From the UHGV virus genome UHGV-1840329: a DNA stretch of 10,323 nucleotides; one strand, written 5' to 3'. The notes under the pieces were generated by a model, which had not been told where the DNA came from, searched no databases, and saw nothing but the letters and a program-made list of their open reading frames with translations. The position numbers and the translations under genes were made by a program. This DNA is from a virus. Position 1 is the first letter of the stretch; the number at the start of each line of letters is the position of its first letter. This document shows, one piece after another, positions 1,986 through 5,126 of the stretch.

Positions 1986-2102
1986 GATTTACCTCTGAGG
2001 TAATTAAAAACCACATAAGACATGAAATCAATAGAGTTTATAATATTTTGTTACCTAACAGGTAATTATCGAGGCGTAAAAAAATGCGCTATCGCGCTGG
2101 TA
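1986..2102 (-). promoter_or_regulatory. Operator-flanked promoter region between P-like gene and nuclease gene
   Basis: Two perfect copies of TTACC-N5-GGTAA at 1989-2003 and 2051-2065, centres 62 bp apart. On the minus strand a TTGATT -35-like hexamer (plus coords 2026-2031) lies 27-32 bp from the distal operator centre, mirroring the pL-like promoter at 5084. A weak -10-like TTTAAT abuts the proximal operator, which also overlaps the RBS of the 1985 start. Confidence 0.45.
2078..2098 (-). terminator. Possible weak intrinsic terminator after P-like gene
   Basis: Minus-strand RNA would form a 4-bp GC stem (GCGC GAUA GCGC) followed by seven U residues, directly after the P-like stop at 2103. 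The stem is short, so strength is doubtful. Confidence 0.25.
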
Positions 2103-2879
2103 TTACTTGATAAATCCTGCCGCCTTTCCCCGCCTGTATTCCTCCATCAGCCACTGCGCCGGTGTTATTCCCCCAAGGGTGGCGGCGTTAGGCATGCACC
2201 CGAAACTTCGCCCTGGTGGATGGTAAACGTCTCTCCCTGTGTCCGGAGGTGTACTCATGGGCTCTGGCTTTGCCTGTATGCTGATCACCGGATCGGGTAT
2301 CTGCTGTCCGGAAGCCACCTTTTTCGCCCAATCATCGAGCAGCCTGCGCGCGTGTTTCTCAACCTCACTCTCGCTAAGCTGGCGCTGATACATTGCACGA
2401 CGGGTATCACATACGACCCAGTACATAACCGGATGCCGCCACGGGAATCTTTCGGGACCACCAGGATATAAACTTTTTTCCTTGCTGTACCGGTGAAACT
2501 CCGCCATCACATCGTCAATGGTGACGCCAAGAACCATCTTGCTGTCTTTGCACCACTTGATGAATTGCCCTGGCGACGGCCAGAACGGAGATTCACTGGC
2601 GCGGGCGTGGCGCATACCAGCGTTAACCTGTTCCATTGTAGTGATCCCATTCTCCAGAAACGCAAGCATCCATTGCTTACGGAATTCATTAAGTTTGTTC
2701 TGCTCCCTTATGGTCGAAACGCTTGCAGGAAATGCAGCCTGTAACTGGACAAATAGTTCATTGAAAATTCTAGCAACCTGCTCCTTTTTGCCATTGCTGT
2801 CACGCCGCTCTTCATGCACAGCAACACCATGCTCACGTAAGCGATCGTACTCATTGAGAAGTTCTGGAGTTGATTTCAT
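2103..2879 (-). CDS. Replication protein P-like (DnaB helicase loader)
   Basis: 258-aa ORF. Segments VARIFNELFVQLQAAFPAS, KQWMLAFLENGITTMEQVNAGMR and PFWPSPGQFIKWC closely match lambda P as I recall it (VAQIINGVFSQLLATFPAS, RQWVLAFRENGITTMEQVNAGMR, PFLPSPGQFVAWC). The 5-prime end overlaps the upstream O-like gene by 29 nt. Confidence 0.85.
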   Translation of the reverse strand: MKSTPELLNEYDRLREHGVAVHEERRDSNGKKEQVARIFNELFVQLQAAFPASVSTIREQNKLNEFRKQWMLAFLENGITTMEQVNAGMRHARASESPFWPSPGQFIKWCKDSKMVLGVTIDDVMAEFHRYSKEKSLYPGGPERFPWRHPVMYWVVCDTRRAMYQRQLSESEVEKHARRLLDDWAKKVASGQQIPDPVISIQAKPEPMSTPPDTGRDVYHPPGRSFGCMPNAATLGGITPAQWLMEEYRRGKAAGFIK

Positions 2880-3681
2880 CCCACACCCCTTCTATCCAGT
2901 CAGTGTTATTCCAGTCAAGCTCATCGCTTTTCCCGGCATTTTTTGATTTTCCCCTGATATGATTTACGTGCCTGGCGAATTTTTGTTCCCACTGAACCTG
3001 CGTGAACACTTTGCCCTCAGCCATCCAGTAATCCCGGAATGCAGCAAGTTCAGCAGGTGTAAATTCCGGTTCCGGCAGGGCCGTTCCCCACAGCGCAGCA
3101 CGCCGCCGAAAATCTGGCGACGGTAGCCAGCCATCTGTCATCGGAAATTTCCCGATGGGTTCACTCAGGCCATCCAGAAATTCAGGTTCTGCCACCTGCA
3201 ACGGCGTACTGTTCGCTTCACTGGTCGGAGCACCCTCGCGCACGTGCGCTATGTGTGGGGTTTTATATATATCTTCCTCTTCCTCTTCCTCTGGTAACTC
3301 CTTTTGTAACGCTGTTGGCGTTACTTTTTGCGTTACTCGTTTTCGATGCTCTGCCACTCTTCTATTCGTAAGTGCACGTTTTTTCGATGATTCTCCATTA
3401 TGTCGCTCAAAGTTTGGAAGAATTAGTTTGCCGTCATGATAAGCAAGCCATCCGACGCTAATGAGGGCGTCAGCAAATCCTGTAATAAAAGCGAGTCTAT
3501 CAAGTACTCCTTTTGTAACGCTGCCAGCGTTACCGTCTATTGTTTGCTGGTCAGCCCATGCCCATATACGAACCAGCTTTCCAAGAACAGCATCTGGATC
3601 AATACCCAGAATTTCTGCTATCTGAAAAATTTCAGGTTTATCAGGAGTGATAACTTCAACCTTAATCCAGCTGCTTGCCAT
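2851..3681 (-). CDS. Putative replication initiator (O-like), probable start at ATG 3681
   Basis: The ORF track extends to a GTG at 3699, but the ATG at 3681 has a GAGGGG Shine-Dalgarno 6 nt upstream. The gene sits immediately upstream of and overlaps the P-like gene, has an acidic poly-Glu linker (EEEEEED), and carries iteron-like DNA repeats inside its coding sequence as lambda O does. The N-terminal domain is not lambda-O-like, so the call rests on position and the internal repeats. Confidence 0.6.
   Translation of the reverse strand: MASSWIKVEVITPDKPEIFQIAEILGIDPDAVLGKLVRIWAWADQQTIDGNAGSVTKGVLDRLAFITGFADALISVGWLAYHDGKLILPNFERHNGESSKKRALTNRRVAEHRKRVTQKVTPTALQKELPEEEEEEDIYKTPHIAHVREGAPTSEANSTPLQVAEPEFLDGLSEPIGKFPMTDGWLPSPDFRRRAALWGTALPEPEFTPAELAAFRDYWMAEGKVFTQVQWEQKFARHVNHIRGKSKNAGKSDELDWNNTDWIEGVWDEINSRTSQ
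3298..3337. repeat. Iteron-like repeat cluster inside O-like gene (putative ori), copy 1
   Basis: ACTCCTTTTGTAACGCTG at 3298-3315 followed by GCGTTAC at 3319-3325 and again at 3331-3337. GTAACGC and GCGTTAC form inverted repeats. An AT-rich stretch (TTTTATATATAT, about 3262-3273) lies adjacent. Confidence 0.45.
3506..3533. repeat. Iteron-like repeat inside O-like gene (putative ori), copy 2
   Basis: The same 18-mer ACTCCTTTTGTAACGCTG at 3506-3523 followed by CAGCGTTAC, forming a 19-bp palindrome GTAACGCTG-C-CAGCGTTAC. It is translated in a different reading frame from copy 1 (SVTKGV here, ALQKEL in copy 1), so the conservation is at the DNA level. Confidence 0.45.
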
Positions 3682-3874
3682 AGGTTTCCCCTCTTGCACT
3701 CTTTAGTGCACAAGCAAATTCATTACGATGGCGGTTGGCGCTATTCATTGCACATTCAACACATGTTCCGTTCAGAACATACCTTTCAGAGAGATGGCCG
3801 TGACGGCACCGCTTTCCTGTGAAATAGCGATTTAACCCGGCTTTTGCGGCCTCCATTCTGGTTACTATCTTCAA
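3662..3874 (-). CDS. Small Zn-ribbon-like protein in the cII position
   Basis: 70-aa ORF with TTG start at 3874 and AAGGGG about 9 nt upstream; an alternative ATG lies at 3856. Contains C-x-H-x-H ... C-x-x-C (CRHGH ... CVEC). Lies between the cro-like gene and the O-like gene. No homology to lambda cII recognised. Confidence 0.4.
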   Translation of the reverse strand: MKIVTRMEAAKAGLNRYFTGKRCRHGHLSERYVLNGTCVECAMNSANRHRNEFACALKSARGETYGKQLD

Positions 3875-3974
3875 TTTTTCCGCCCCTTTTTGTTATTGAT
3901 ATTGGCTATTTTGCACAATTGGAAAATTTGATCAACCAGATTTGGTTTTTTATTACCTTTGAGGTACGAATAGA

Positions 3975-4000
3975 TATGAAAAGACCGCCGGATGGCGGTC
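3975..4000 (-). terminator. Intrinsic terminator, tR1-like, downstream of cro-like gene
   Basis: Perfect 7-bp stem GACCGCC/GGCGGTC with a 4-nt loop at 3983-4000, followed on the minus strand by UUUUC. It lies between the cro-like stop (4023) and the next gene start (3874). Confidence 0.5.
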
Positions 4001-4022
4001 TACAGAGGGTTGTGGATGGATA

Positions 4023-4253: not shown

Positions 4254-4407
4254 AGCTATTGCCTGATATTTATTTCAGATAATAAATATTCACCCATAAG
4301 GTAACAAAAATCAAGGATAGTTACCTATGAGGTGCATTTACCTGTTGGGTAATATTGCTTTAAATTGAATCATCTACTGATTCATATATGAGGCGATTTT
4401 CCAGAAA
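4254..4407. promoter_or_regulatory. Divergent promoter and operator region (OR-like), three operator sites
   Basis: Three palindrome copies: 4290-4304 TCACC-N5-GGTAA (9/10), 4321-4335 TTACC-N5-GGTGC (8/10), 4338-4352 TTACC-N5-GGTAA (perfect). A candidate minus-strand promoter for the cro-like gene (-35 TTGTTA, 17-nt spacer, -10 TATTAT at plus coords about 4279-4284) overlaps the 4290-4304 site. Promoter hexamer assignment is tentative. Confidence 0.5.
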
Positions 4408-4992
4408 ATGAAAAGTATCCAGGACGTCCGCAGGCAAAATCTCAACGACTTGATCGACCGTGAATTCAATGGTGTTCAGACGCGGATGGCAGAAAAACTT
4501 GGAACTCAGGCAAATCTGGTAAACCGCTGGGCTCTTGGCAAGAAGGTTATCGGCGACCAGGTTGCACGAAAAATTGAAGCTGCCGCCAATAAACCCCGTA
4601 ACTGGCTTGATATTGATCGTTCGCTTTCTCAGGAGGGTTTTCAGCCTGTCGGCCCGAGCGATATAGGTCAGCTGGCGGCTCACAACCTGGAACGCTGGAT
4701 GAGCGAAAGCCGCGACCTTTCAACACAGGGAAAACTTCACCGCGCATCCGGCGTCGCCCAGGTGACAATCAGCCGCCTGTTAAACAATGAGGTCAGCGTT
4801 TCCATTTCCACCCTGGAGAATGTTGCATCCGCATTCGGGCGTCACGGATATGAACTACTGATTCACCCGCACGACCCTGCGACTATCAACTATGACCGCT
4901 CACGCTACGCATTGTTACCCGAAACCGAGAAAGCAAAGATCGAAAGTTACATTGAATTTGTCATCAACCAGAACGAAAAAAGCAAACAATAA
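4408..4992 (+). CDS. Phage repressor (cI-like), tandem HTH domains, no S24 peptidase domain
   Basis: 194-aa ORF. N-terminal XRE-type HTH (GVQTRMAEKLGTQANLVNRWALGKK) and a second HTH-like segment (SGVAQVTISRLLNNEVSVSISTLENVASAF). Too short for a LexA-like autocleavage domain and none is recognisable. No Shine-Dalgarno upstream of ATG 4408 and no in-frame alternative start after the upstream stop. Confidence 0.75.
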   Translation: MKSIQDVRRQNLNDLIDREFNGVQTRMAEKLGTQANLVNRWALGKKVIGDQVARKIEAAANKPRNWLDIDRSLSQEGFQPVGPSDIGQLAAHNLERWMSESRDLSTQGKLHRASGVAQVTISRLLNNEVSVSISTLENVASAFGRHGYELLIHPHDPATINYDRSRYALLPETEKAKIESYIEFVINQNEKSKQ

Positions 4993-5012
4993 AACTATAT
5001 TTTTCAGTAAGT

Positions 5013-5039
5013 AAGCCGCCTCATGGCGGCTTTTTTATT
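5013..5039 (+). terminator. Intrinsic terminator after repressor gene
   Basis: Stem AAGCCGCC/GGCGGCTT (8 bp) with loop TCAT, followed by TTTTTTATT, 21 nt after the repressor stop. Confidence 0.6.
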
Positions 5040-5049
5040 GCCAGATAGA

Positions 5050-5126
5050 TTACCTTACGGGTAATTTTTTTAACTCATATCTATTGACACCAAACCAAAT
5101 AAGCATAATTATTACCTCAACGGTAA
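5050..5126 (+). promoter_or_regulatory. pL-like promoter flanked by two operator palindromes
   Basis: Perfect TTGACA at 5084-5089, a -10-like ATAATT/TAATTA at 5105-5111 (spacer 15-16), and perfect TTACC-N5-GGTAA operators at 5050-5064 and 5112-5126, centres 62 bp apart. The downstream operator overlaps the predicted transcription start. Confidence 0.5.

What the first reader, a model, noticed from the sequence alone, without database searches (positions are those of the whole stretch)
1989..5126. Recurrent palindrome ATTACC-N5-GGTAAT defines a putative repressor regulon
Seen in sequence: five perfect copies of TTACC-N5-GGTAA (1989-2003, 2051-2065, 4338-4352, 5050-5064, 5112-5126) and three degenerate copies (3953-3967 and 4290-4304 at 9/10, 4321-4335 at 8/10). 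All lie in intergenic regions; I found none inside coding sequence by eye. For a pattern fixing 10 positions, about 0.01 chance occurrences are expected in 10 kb, so five perfect copies is not chance. Three sites sit in the cro/repressor divergent region like lambda OR1-3, and two flank a TTGACA promoter like OL. Both flanking pairs have the same 62-bp centre-to-centre spacing, close to six helical turns, which suggests cooperative binding or looping. That the tandem-HTH protein at 4408-4992 is the binding protein is inference.
Basis: partly seen in the sequence, partly recalled or inferred. Interest (0 to 1): 0.6.

Follow-up and report, generated by a model that had tools for sequence, protein, structure and literature searches.

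The report
Prophage repressor operator sites (epsilon15-type)
The repeated palindrome is real and marks the DNA sites where the repressor of an epsilon15/phiV10-type E. coli prophage most likely binds to keep the virus silent, but the same motif is already annotated as repressor-binding in the related phage epsilon15, so it is a correct but ordinary finding.

Summary
There are five perfect TTACC-N5-GGTAA copies where 0.01 is expected by chance, plus three degenerate copies. All eight are intergenic, and two pairs sit exactly 62 bp apart.

The window is 100% identical to an epsilon15/phiV10-like (Uetakevirus) prophage at guaA in E. coli Combat2C1. The same motif sits at the same positions in phiV10, epsilon15, SPC32H, Tyrion and BUCT711. 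The epsilon15 GenBank record already labels seven such sites 'protein_bind: repressor'.

The gene at 4408-4992 is a full-length homologue of SPC32H Rep (PDB 5D50). Papers held here describe that protein as a tetramer that binds palindromic sites. It has no peptidase domain and is released by a LexA-controlled antirepressor. An 88%-identical Ant with a LexA box lies elsewhere in this prophage.

Half-sites are nearly invariant across 80 related viral contigs (4/80 variable columns), while the central N5 varies freely (23/40).

The sites overlap the core of three early promoters (PL, PR, PR2) and the presumed rep promoter. The whole prophage holds 10 perfect copies, including sites at late, tailspike and antirepressor regions. 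110 kb of flanking host DNA holds none.

The system is not lambda-CI-like in its induction or its reach. Novelty is low.

The parts
5050..5064 (.). OL-distal operator (perfect; the only site that matches the full 17-mer ATTACC-N5-GGTAAT, 5049-5065), centred about 62 bp upstream of the proximal operator
   Evidence: half-sites invariant in 6 phages
5112..5126 (.). OL-proximal operator (perfect); its first base is the last base of the -10 hexamer, so it covers the predicted transcription start
5084..5112 (+). PL-like early promoter (TTGACA-17-AATTAT) reading into the gp37-like, gp36-like, exonuclease, RecT ... methylase operon
   Evidence: 10/12 consensus match; CTATTGAC and ATTATT invariant in alignment A5
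4338..4352 (.). OR operator nearest rep (perfect); overlaps the candidate -35 of the rep promoter
4321..4335 (.). OR middle operator (8/10 here; orthologous site is perfect in epsilon15, SPC32H and BUCT711), 17 bp from the 4338 site
4290..4304 (.). OR operator nearest the cro-like gene (9/10). It lies in the spacer and overlaps the -10 of the PR-like promoter. This site is imperfect in all six phages, with the same substitution in five
4286..4314 (-). PR-like promoter for the cro-like gene (-35 TTGATT at 4314-4309, -10 GAATAT at 4291-4286). The scanner's alternative is TTGTTA-17-TATTAT at 4307-4279
   Evidence: AAAAATCAA invariant in A4
4337..4365 (+). Candidate rep promoter (TTTACC-17-TTAAAT); an inferred assignment
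   Evidence: TTAAAT region conserved in A4; not detected by the consensus scanner
4408..4992 (+). rep: repressor, homologue of SPC32H Rep (N-terminal HTH DNA-binding domain, middle dimerisation domain, C-terminal tetramerisation domain)
   Evidence: PMC9782041, PMC9986798, PMC9638917
4023..4253 (-). cro-like gene (epsilon15 gp39 homologue), a small predicted HTH protein
   Evidence: (phrog_35, E 5.6e-13)
3953..3967 (.). Degenerate operator (9/10) just downstream of the cro-like terminator and 17 nt upstream of a candidate -35 (TTGATC 3935-3930) for the gp40-like and replication genes. Its position is conserved and one half-site is degenerate in all six phages
3982..4001 (-). Intrinsic terminator after the cro-like gene
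   Evidence: annotated in phiV10
5013..5032 (+). Intrinsic terminator after rep, separating it from PL
   Evidence: annotated in phiV10
2051..2065 (.). PR2-distal operator (perfect)
1989..2003 (.). PR2-proximal operator (perfect). It abuts the -10, and its GAGGTAA half doubles as the ribosome-binding site of the DUF1064 gene (ATG at 1985)
2003..2031 (-). PR2: third early promoter (TTGATT-17-TTTAAT) for DUF1064, eae-like and ead-like genes, in the same register relative to its operators as PL
   Evidence: TATTGA invariant in A3; below the scanner's threshold because the -10 has T at position 2
2078..2097 (-). Conserved GCGC-N4-GCGC hairpin plus T7 (terminator-like) after the P-like replication gene, immediately upstream of the PR2 module
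   Evidence: annotated as a putative terminator in phiV10

Best explanation
The palindromes are the operators of the prophage's lysogeny repressor, Rep (4408-4992).

Binding (inferred from homology and conservation). Pairs of Rep N-terminal helix-turn-helix domains read the two TTACC/GGTAA half-sites. The central 5 bp is not read base by base.

Promoter occlusion (shown for position, inferred for effect). In a lysogen, Rep on these sites covers the core of the early promoters:
- At PL and PR2 the proximal operator starts at the last base of the -10 hexamer and covers the predicted start site.
- At PR the operator fills the -35/-10 spacer.
- The site at 4338 overlaps the presumed rep promoter, which would give negative autoregulation.

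Looping (inferred). Rep homologues are tetramers with two DNA-binding ends. I therefore infer that one tetramer binds the proximal and distal operators of a 62-bp pair together, bending the promoter between them. That would explain why the spacing is conserved.

Reach (shown for site positions). The same repressor also has sites at late, tailspike/antirepressor, moron and integrase regions outside the window.

Induction (inferred from homology). Rep is not cleaved. A small antirepressor, Ant, is made when LexA is inactivated, and it pulls Rep off the DNA.
For: Motif statistics and location:
- 5 perfect copies against 0.01 expected in the window.
- 10 perfect copies in the 39.9-kb prophage, 9 of them in its 9% non-coding DNA (P about 3e-9). 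The 110 kb of host flank has none.

Conservation of sites:
- Orthologous sites occur at the same positions in phiV10, epsilon15, SPC32H, Tyrion and BUCT711. Half-sites and promoter hexamers are invariant and the N5 is free.
- In 80 IMG/VR loci whose Rep is at least 99% identical, variable columns number 4/80 in half-sites, 23/40 in N5 and 88/496 elsewhere. Fisher P is 3e-10 and 0.003.

Prior annotation:
- GenBank AY150271.2 (epsilon15) annotates seven of these sites as protein_bind 'repressor; lysogeny'. They coincide with motif hits.

The repressor:
- It matches PDB 5D50, SPC32H Rep, over its full length at E 3.5e-42.
- The N-terminal helix motif NLVNRW is invariant, although overall identity is only 43%.
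- It has no S24 peptidase domain.
- The tetramer-interface residues F187 and F190 of SPC32H correspond to Y and an invariant F here (PMC9986798).
- SPC32H Rep binds palindromic DNA as a tetramer and only weakly as a dimer (PMC9638917, citing Kim 2016).
- Overexpressing ZX5 ORF21, which is 99.5% identical, cut holin transcription by 99.97% and blocked lytic growth (PMC9782041).

Induction module:
- The Ant homologue in the same prophage is 88% identical to SPC32H Ant, and a perfect LexA box CTGTATAAATATACAG lies upstream of it.

Independent link between protein and motif:
- Pseudomonas phage PseuP_224 was found only through homology to the Rep N-terminal domain (39% identity). Its CI has an S24-type C-terminal domain instead. 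Its promoters carry three TTACC-N4-GGTAA palindromes within 5.2 kb.
Against: - No binding experiment could be read for any of these sites. The primary papers (Kropinski 2007; Kim & Ryu 2013; Kim et al. 2016) are not held, so the GenBank labels may be predictions only.
- The cro-like protein is even better conserved (76% against 43%). It could recognise the same sites.
- A perfect operator over the presumed rep -35 sits awkwardly with maintaining Rep expression. The rep promoter assignment is only inferred.
- Bridging two sites 62 bp apart requires a sharp DNA bend. PMC9986798 gives about 100 Angstrom between the two ends of the tetramer. No data show that such a bend forms.
- The equal spacing could partly reflect PL and PR2 being duplicated modules.
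Confidence: 0.85

Rival explanations
1. The motif is primarily the target of the small cro-like HTH protein (4023-4253), acting as a lytic-phase repressor, and not of Rep.
For: - The cro-like protein matches PHROG 35 'transcriptional repressor'.
- A single-sequence AlphaFold model is five-helical at pLDDT 81.6. Its top structural neighbours are YdaS, 434 repressor and C-protein HTH domains.
- It is 76% identical between this prophage and epsilon15, with an invariant AGTTSHYIQ.HLT segment. That matches the invariance of the half-sites.
- In lambdoid phages Cro and CI share operators (general knowledge).
Against: - The fold matches are not significant (E at least 1).
- Sites at late, tailspike and integrase promoters fit a lysogenic master repressor better.
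- The epsilon15 record assigns them to the repressor.
- Homologues of the Rep N-terminal domain in an unrelated Pseudomonas phage come with the same half-sites.
- The two readings are not exclusive, because shared operators are likely.
Confidence: 0.07
2. The palindromes act as RNA or DNA hairpins (terminators, processing sites or attenuators) and not as protein-binding sites.
For: They are inverted repeats. One terminator-like hit on the minus strand (5142-5109) pairs an operator half with the downstream GAGGTAA.
Against: - Predicted stems are only 5-8 bp, at -1 to -7 kcal/mol.
- Stem sequence is invariant, with no compensatory changes, across 54 unique sites.
- Several sites lie upstream of the predicted start sites, so they would not be transcribed.
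- True terminators with GC-rich stems lie elsewhere.
Confidence: 0.01
3. The sites are bound by a host factor, or are targets of the phage methyltransferase or a restriction system, or are replication-origin iterons near the replication genes.
For: The prophage encodes an MT-A70 methylase (8228-8878). One pair lies next to the DnaT-like and P-like replication genes.
Against: - The 110 kb of host DNA has no perfect copies, which does not fit a host regulon.
- Methylase or restriction targets would not avoid coding DNA (9 of 10 sites are non-coding).
- The sites are palindromes, not direct repeats, and most are far from the replication genes.
Confidence: 0.02

Closest known systems
Repressor operators of Salmonella phage epsilon15 (GenBank AY150271.2 'protein_bind: repressor', from Kropinski et al. 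2007) and the Rep/Ant switch of Salmonella phage SPC32H (Kim & Ryu 2013; Kim et al. 2016; PDB 5D50, 5D4Z)
   Same: - Same genus (Uetakevirus) and the same half-sites, TTACC/GGTAA with an N5 spacer.
- Same positions: PL pair, OR triplet, PR2 pair, and sites at terS, head, tailspike/ant, lysis and int.
- Same 62-bp pairs.
- Homologous Rep, cro-like protein and Ant, with a LexA box at ant.
   Different: - Rep here is only 43% identical to epsilon15 and SPC32H Rep. The divergence is concentrated outside the N-terminal domain.
- The PL leader lacks the third operator that epsilon15, SPC32H and BUCT711 have.
- The middle OR site is degenerate here but perfect there.
- The epsilon15 record does not annotate the OR sites or the PR2-proximal site.
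- None of the phiV10-type annotated regions inspected here lists operators.
Lambda CI/Cro with OR1-3 and OL1-3
   Same: - Divergent repressor and cro-like genes with three palindromic operators between them.
- A leftward early operon (recombination genes) with operators on its promoter.
- Operators of about 17 bp read by HTH dimers.
- Cooperative binding by higher oligomers is plausible.
   Different: - No S24 autocleavage domain. Induction is by a LexA-controlled antirepressor.
- Operators also sit at late, tailspike and integrase regions, whereas lambda CI acts only at OL and OR.
- Operators at PL and PR2 are split into a proximal and a distal site 62 bp apart, not three adjacent sites.
Phage P1 C1 repressor with many operators dispersed over the genome (own knowledge, not tested here)
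   Same: One repressor has operators at many separate transcription units. Inactivation is by antirepressor, not by cleavage.
   Different: P1 operators are asymmetric and are bound by monomers. No homology was tested. Here the operators are symmetric and the repressor is a tetramer.
Pseudomonas phage PseuP_224 CI (OP795451.1)
   Same: Its N-terminal HTH is homologous to the Rep N-terminal domain (39% identity). Its promoters carry the same TTACC/GGTAA half-sites.
   Different: The spacer is N4, not N5. The C-terminal domain is S24-peptidase-like, so it is a lambda-style cleavable repressor. The genome context is unrelated.

Membership tests
SPC32H-type Rep/Ant immunity system (Uetakevirus) | Full-length homology of the repressor to SPC32H Rep (N-terminal DNA-binding HTH, middle dimerisation domain, C-terminal tetramerisation domain) | tested here: met
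   phmmer against PDB: 5d50_A at E 3.5e-42, residues 1-190 aligned to 2-197. Five-sequence alignment A1.
SPC32H-type Rep/Ant immunity system (Uetakevirus) | Hydrophobic tetramer interface (Phe187 and Phe190 in SPC32H Rep, per PMC9986798) | tested here: met
   In A1 the position aligned to F190 is an invariant F (F184 here). The position aligned to F187 is Y here. This is sequence-level only; oligomeric state was not measured.
SPC32H-type Rep/Ant immunity system (Uetakevirus) | Repressor lacks a RecA-dependent autocleavage (S24 peptidase) domain | tested here: met
   Pfam scan finds only HTH families (HTH_3, HTH_26, weak YdaS) and no Peptidase_S24.
SPC32H-type Rep/Ant immunity system (Uetakevirus) | Small antirepressor Ant encoded elsewhere in the phage, with a LexA box at its promoter | tested here: met
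   This lies outside the window but in the same prophage. L009 9434-9691 is 88% identical to SPC32H Ant, and CTGTATAAATATACAG lies upstream.
SPC32H-type Rep/Ant immunity system (Uetakevirus) | Rep physically binds the palindromic operators as a tetramer, and Ant releases it | not testable with these tools
   Only indirect support: the GenBank labels in epsilon15, statements in PMC9638917 and PMC9986798, and the overexpression phenotype in PMC9782041.
Epsilon15-type operator set | 17-bp hyphenated palindrome ATTACC-N5-GGTAAT at the PL, PR2, terS, head and tailspike promoters | tested here: met
   Orthologous positions in the window and the whole prophage. They coincide with the epsilon15 protein_bind features.
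Lambda-type CI/Cro switch | Repressor with a C-terminal S24 peptidase domain cleaved on RecA activation | tested here: not met
   No S24 domain. The C-terminal part is homologous to the SPC32H Rep dimerisation and tetramerisation domains.
Lambda-type CI/Cro switch | Three operators between divergent repressor and cro genes, overlapping PR and PRM | tested here: met
   Sites at 4290, 4321 and 4338 lie between 4253 and 4408. The PR-like -35 and -10 and the candidate rep promoter overlap them. The promoter assignments are consensus-based.
Lambda-type CI/Cro switch | Repressor acts only at the two early operators, with late genes controlled indirectly | tested here: not met
   Perfect or near-perfect sites lie upstream of the terS, head and tailspike/ant genes, moron genes and int in this prophage, and additionally upstream of the lysis cassette in relatives.

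The most novel reading that the evidence does not exclude
A single Rep tetramer clamps the proximal and distal operators of each 62-bp pair. This wraps the whole core promoter in a micro-loop of about six helical turns, which would be among the shortest natural repression loops. The same repressor directly silences every transcription unit of the phage (early, late, lysis, tailspike, integrase) through some 10 to 16 dispersed operators. Operator specificity is frozen across Salmonella, E. coli, Klebsiella and Enterobacter phages even though Rep has diverged to 43% identity, which would imply genus-wide cross-immunity. A second conserved palindrome (CCATATATGG-like) beside many operators could be the site of a second regulator, such as the cro-like protein.
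Probability: 0.3. Interest if true: 0.4.

Novelty: already known. Interest (0 to 1): 0.15.

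Why it matters
This immunity region is present in about 10% of complete E. coli genomes (541 of 5,426). Its operator map is therefore useful for annotating these prophages. It also helps predict cross-immunity and SOS-dependent induction in clinical and avian E. 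coli.

It does not open a new question. The motif, the repressor family and the antirepressor mechanism have been described for epsilon15 and SPC32H.

The modest added value here has four parts:
- a complete operator and promoter map for the phiV10-type phages, including OR sites not annotated even in epsilon15;
- evidence that the 62-bp pairing is conserved across the genus;
- population-level evidence of selection on the half-sites;
- the link to an N4-spaced version of the same half-sites in a Pseudomonas phage CI.

Tried and rejected
- Primary papers. I tried to read Kropinski 2007 (DOI and PMC2698709), Kim & Ryu 2013 (PMC3807360) and Kim et al. 2016 (PMC4983836). None is held. Whether the operators were mapped experimentally therefore rests on secondary citations and the GenBank features. 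What I state about Rep not being cleaved and about LexA control of ant comes partly from my own memory of the Kim & Ryu 2013 abstract.
- Full-text searches for the motif string and for operator descriptions in this genus found nothing relevant.
The single-sequence model gave only non-significant fold matches.
- The viral-contig search with the Rep alignment returned only near-identical loci. It served for a population test, not for a test of covariation between recognition helix and half-site.
- The + strand promoter-like hit AAGACA-16-TATAAT at 2017-2044, antisense to the P gene, is not conserved in phiV10. I treat it as chance.
- The half-site GAGGTAA at 5133-5139 is not a third PL operator, because the left half matches 0 of 5. 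It is the ribosome-binding site, and may be a remnant of the third operator seen in epsilon15.
- Eight non-enterobacterial hits in the scan for 62-bp pairs are unrelated: a 62-bp tandem repeat, a conserved coding sequence, or other operator-like clusters.

Full report
**Observation.** An exact search finds TTACC-N5-GGTAA at 1989, 2051, 4338, 5050 and 5112. Dinucleotide-preserving shuffles give a mean of 0.01. Allowing mismatches adds 3953 and 4290 (9/10) and 4321 (8/10), exactly as reported. It also adds two 8/10 hits in coding DNA (1174, 3428), which fit the chance level of 2.8. All eight reported sites lie in the roughly 7% of the window that is non-coding. Both 1989/2051 and 5050/5112 are 62 bp apart centre to centre. 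The only overstatement is the 17-bp form in the title, which is perfect only at 5049-5065.

**Where the window comes from.** The window is 100% identical to E. coli Combat2C1 NZ_CP019243.1 1568754-1579076. It lies inside a roughly 40-kb prophage integrated at the 3' end of guaA. It is 97-99% identical to parts of phiV10, TL-2011b and vB_EcoP_ZX5, and about 81% identical to epsilon15, all in the genus Uetakevirus.

Gene order in the window:
- integrase, 9073-10323 (-)
- DUF1382 gene, MT-A70 methylase, PerC-like, small membrane protein, AlpA-like
- RecT, 6506-7528
- YqaJ exonuclease, 5597-6496
- gp36-like and gp37-like genes
- repressor, 4408-4992 (+)
- cro-like gp39 homologue, 4023-4253 (-)
- gp40-like, 3662-3874 (-)
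- DnaT-like, 2851-3699 (-)
- lambda-P-like, 2103-2879 (-)
- DUF1064, 1641-1985 (-)
- eae-like and ead-like genes

**The motif is already annotated in a relative.** The epsilon15 GenBank record AY150271.2 carries 'protein_bind: repressor / lysogeny' features at 12-27, 2931-2947, 19895-19911, 32479-32494, 32554-32570, 32616-32632 and 35906-35922. Each coincides with a perfect TTACC-N5-GGTAA. The orthologous window sites are 5050 and 5112 (PL) and 2051 (PR2-distal). The epsilon15 record does not mark the OR sites or the PR2-proximal site. The phiV10, ZX5 and Combat2C1 annotations mark no operators at all.

**Genome-wide census.** The Combat2C1 prophage has 10 perfect copies in 39.9 kb. Nine lie in its 9% non-coding DNA (P about 3e-9). 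The tenth lies in the first 60 nt of the annotated terS ORF. In epsilon15 and Tyrion, terS starts downstream of the orthologous site, so the start codon is probably overcalled. The 110 kb of flanking host chromosome has no perfect copy.

phiV10, epsilon15, SPC32H, Tyrion and BUCT711 were chosen by repressor homology. They hold 8 to 11 perfect copies each, at the same landmarks:
- upstream of terS
- upstream of the head operon
- between ant and the tailspike gene
- upstream of the lysis cassette
- upstream of int (a conserved 9/10 site, 43 bp beyond the end of the window)
- the PL pair
- the OR triplet
- a degenerate site after the cro-like terminator
- the PR2 pair

The paired sites are 62 bp apart in 11 of 12 cases and 63 bp in one.

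A scan of one genome per bacterial species for the 62-bp pair gave 19 stretches. Eleven are in Enterobacteriaceae prophages (Citrobacter, Klebsiella, Kluyvera, Buttiauxella, Pseudocitrobacter, Pseudescherichia, Superficieibacter, Erwinia). Seven of these carry both Rep homologues (38-74% identical) and cro-like homologues nearby, and an eighth has Rep alone.

**Selection on the sites.** Alignments of the PL, OR and PR2 modules from six phages show invariant half-sites and invariant promoter elements. These include CTATTGA at -35, the -10 that abuts the operator, and a terminator-like hairpin. The N5 differs freely.

In 80 IMG/VR loci whose Rep is at least 99% identical, variable alignment columns number 4/80 in half-sites, 23/40 in the N5 and 88/496 in the remaining flanks. 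Fisher P is 3e-10 for half-sites against N5 and 0.003 for half-sites against the flanks.

Over 54 unique sites the centre base is A or T in 106 of 108 symmetrised counts, and the outer flank is A or T in about 65%. This is the footprint expected of a dimeric HTH operator. It is not that of an RNA hairpin: predicted stems reach only -1 to -7 kcal/mol and show no compensatory change.

**The binding protein.** The 194-aa product of 4408-4992 matches SPC32H Rep (PDB 5D50) over its full length at E 3.5e-42. It is 43% identical to epsilon15 and SPC32H Rep, 78% to Tyrion and 44% to BUCT711. Conservation is concentrated in the N-terminal 70 residues, including an invariant NLVNRW. Pfam finds HTH families only and no S24 peptidase.

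Papers held here give the following account:
- SPC32H Rep has an N-terminal DNA-binding domain, a middle dimerisation domain and a C-terminal tetramerisation domain. The last uses F187 and F190, and the two ends of the tetramer are about 100 Angstrom apart (PMC9986798).
- It binds palindromic sites as a tetramer and only weakly as a dimer. The tetrameric antirepressor Ant disassembles it (PMC9638917).

Position F190 is an invariant F here, and F187 is Y. ZX5 ORF21 is 99.5% identical to the window protein. When overexpressed it cut holin transcription by 99.97% and prevented lytic growth (PMC9782041). That paper did not define operators.

The same prophage encodes an Ant that is 88% identical to SPC32H Ant. 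A perfect LexA box lies upstream of it.

An independent link between the protein module and the half-site comes from Pseudomonas phage PseuP_224. Its CI was retrieved only by homology to the Rep N-terminal domain (39% identity), and it has an S24-type C-terminal domain. Its own promoter regions carry three TTACC-N4-GGTAA palindromes within 5.2 kb.

**Anatomy and likely mechanism.**

*PL.* The promoter is TTGACA 5084-5089, a 17-nt spacer, and AATTAT 5107-5112. The proximal operator begins at the last base of the -10 hexamer.

*PR2.* On the minus strand the promoter is TTGATT 2031-2026, a 17-nt spacer, and TTTAAT 2008-2003. It has the identical register. Its proximal operator also supplies the GAGG ribosome-binding site for the DUF1064 gene. 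In both PL and PR2 the distal operator lies 62 bp upstream, followed by a T-tract.

*PR.* The -35 is TTGATT 4314-4309. The 9/10 operator at 4290-4304 fills the spacer and overlaps the -10. This site is imperfect in all six phages, with the same substitution in five.

*OR, rep side.* Sites 4321 and 4338 are 17 bp apart. Site 4338 overlaps the candidate rep promoter, TTTACC-17-TTAAAT at 4337-4365.

The site positions are shown. Promoter occlusion, negative autoregulation and bridging of the 62-bp pairs by one tetramer (5.9 helical turns) are inferred. Induction by Ant after LexA inactivation is inferred from homology.

**Comparison and novelty.** The layout resembles lambda OR and OL. Two defining lambda features fail: there is no cleavable repressor, and operators also sit at late, tailspike/ant and integrase regions (plus the lysis cassette in relatives). 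The system is a member of the epsilon15/SPC32H Rep-Ant type. Every feature of that type that can be tested by sequence is met.

The motif, its positions and the protein family are already on record for the genus. I therefore rate the finding as already known and of low interest. The phiV10-type operator map and the OR sites do appear to be unannotated in the records inspected. The immunity region occurs in 541 of 5,426 complete E. coli genomes.

**Limits.** The three primary papers could not be read, so I cannot say which sites were footprinted. The cro-like protein is probably an HTH protein: it matches phrog_35 at E 5.6e-13, and a single-sequence model is a five-helix bundle at pLDDT 81.6, although the fold matches have E of 1 or more. 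It may share these operators.

Noticed in passing
window 3936-3945 (CCAGATTTGG). Degenerate copies in the PL spacer (about 5094-5103) and the PR2 spacer (about 2010-2019). Clearest in L007 (Tyrion) at 26454, 34217 and 35387, and in L009 at 9305 and 29303.: A second conserved element, a CCATATATGG-like palindrome often followed by TT, lies at fixed distances from operator centres (about 19.5, 40-43 or 52 bp). It occurs in early, tailspike, lysis and head promoter regions of several Uetakeviruses. Tyrion has three perfect copies. In PR2 the core TGG is invariant in six phages, but in epsilon15 PL the element is absent. It could be the site of a second regulator or a promoter element.
   Followed up: partly
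L009 9434-9691 (same prophage, outside the window) compared with window 4408-4992: The antirepressor Ant is 88% identical between this E. coli prophage and Salmonella phage SPC32H. Its target Rep is only 43% identical, and the divergence is greatest in the C-terminal part that Ant is reported to bind. This mismatch in conservation is unexplained.
   Followed up: partly
L009 32480-32512 (window coordinate about -1270); L005 (phiV10) 87-119: Two adjacent operator-like sites lie inside the first 60-80 nt of the annotated terminase small-subunit ORF in phiV10 and Combat2C1. In epsilon15 and Tyrion the gene starts just downstream of them, so the E. coli start codons are probably overcalled.
   Followed up: partly
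43 bp beyond the window end (window coordinate 10366-10380; L009 44120-44134): A 9/10 site (TTACCTTAAAGGTAT, one half-site GGTAT or ATACC) lies upstream of the integrase gene. It is conserved in all six phages examined. This suggests Rep also touches the int/attP region.
   Followed up: no
L111 (Pseudomonas phage PseuP_224) 2440-2494 and 3290-3345: A lambda-style CI with an S24 peptidase domain has an N-terminal domain homologous to Rep. It is flanked by TTACC-N4-GGTAA operators, which have the same half-sites but a spacer one base shorter. The DNA-reading module appears to be shared between cleavable repressors and antirepressor-controlled ones.
   Followed up: partly
L018 (Terriglobia MAG) 2089-2165; L025 (Acholeplasmataceae MAG) 6180-6256; L028 (Viridibacillus) 2921-3021; L020 (Chitinophagales MAG) 2554-2692: Pairs or clusters of ATTACC-N5-GGTAAT also occur 62 bp apart in unrelated phyla. 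Some are next to TTGACA-like promoters, and Viridibacillus has four sites within 100 bp. L020 is a 62-bp tandem repeat. No Rep homologue was found in these loci.
   Followed up: partly
L009 10864-10878 and 11911-11925 (same prophage, outside the window): Perfect operators flank a BRO-N-domain gene (the type called anti-repressor ORF4 in the ZX5 paper). They lie next to two YafO-family toxin genes in the moron region, so accessory genes may also be under Rep control.
   Followed up: no
window 2017-2044 (+): A strong consensus promoter-like match (AAGACA-16-TATAAT, 10/12) lies between the PR2 operators and points antisense into the P-like replication gene. It is not conserved in phiV10 and is probably chance.
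   Followed up: partly
window 1994-1998, 2056-2060, 4326-4330, 5055-5059, 5117-5121: Among near-identical prophages, the central N5 of the operators is more variable (57% of columns) than the surrounding non-operator sequence (18%). This could reflect tuning of operator affinity or recombination between modules.
   Followed up: no
window 3940-5140: This immunity region (cro-like gene, rep and the OR and PL operators) is present at 95% identity or more in 541 of 5,426 complete E. coli genomes.
   Followed up: yes
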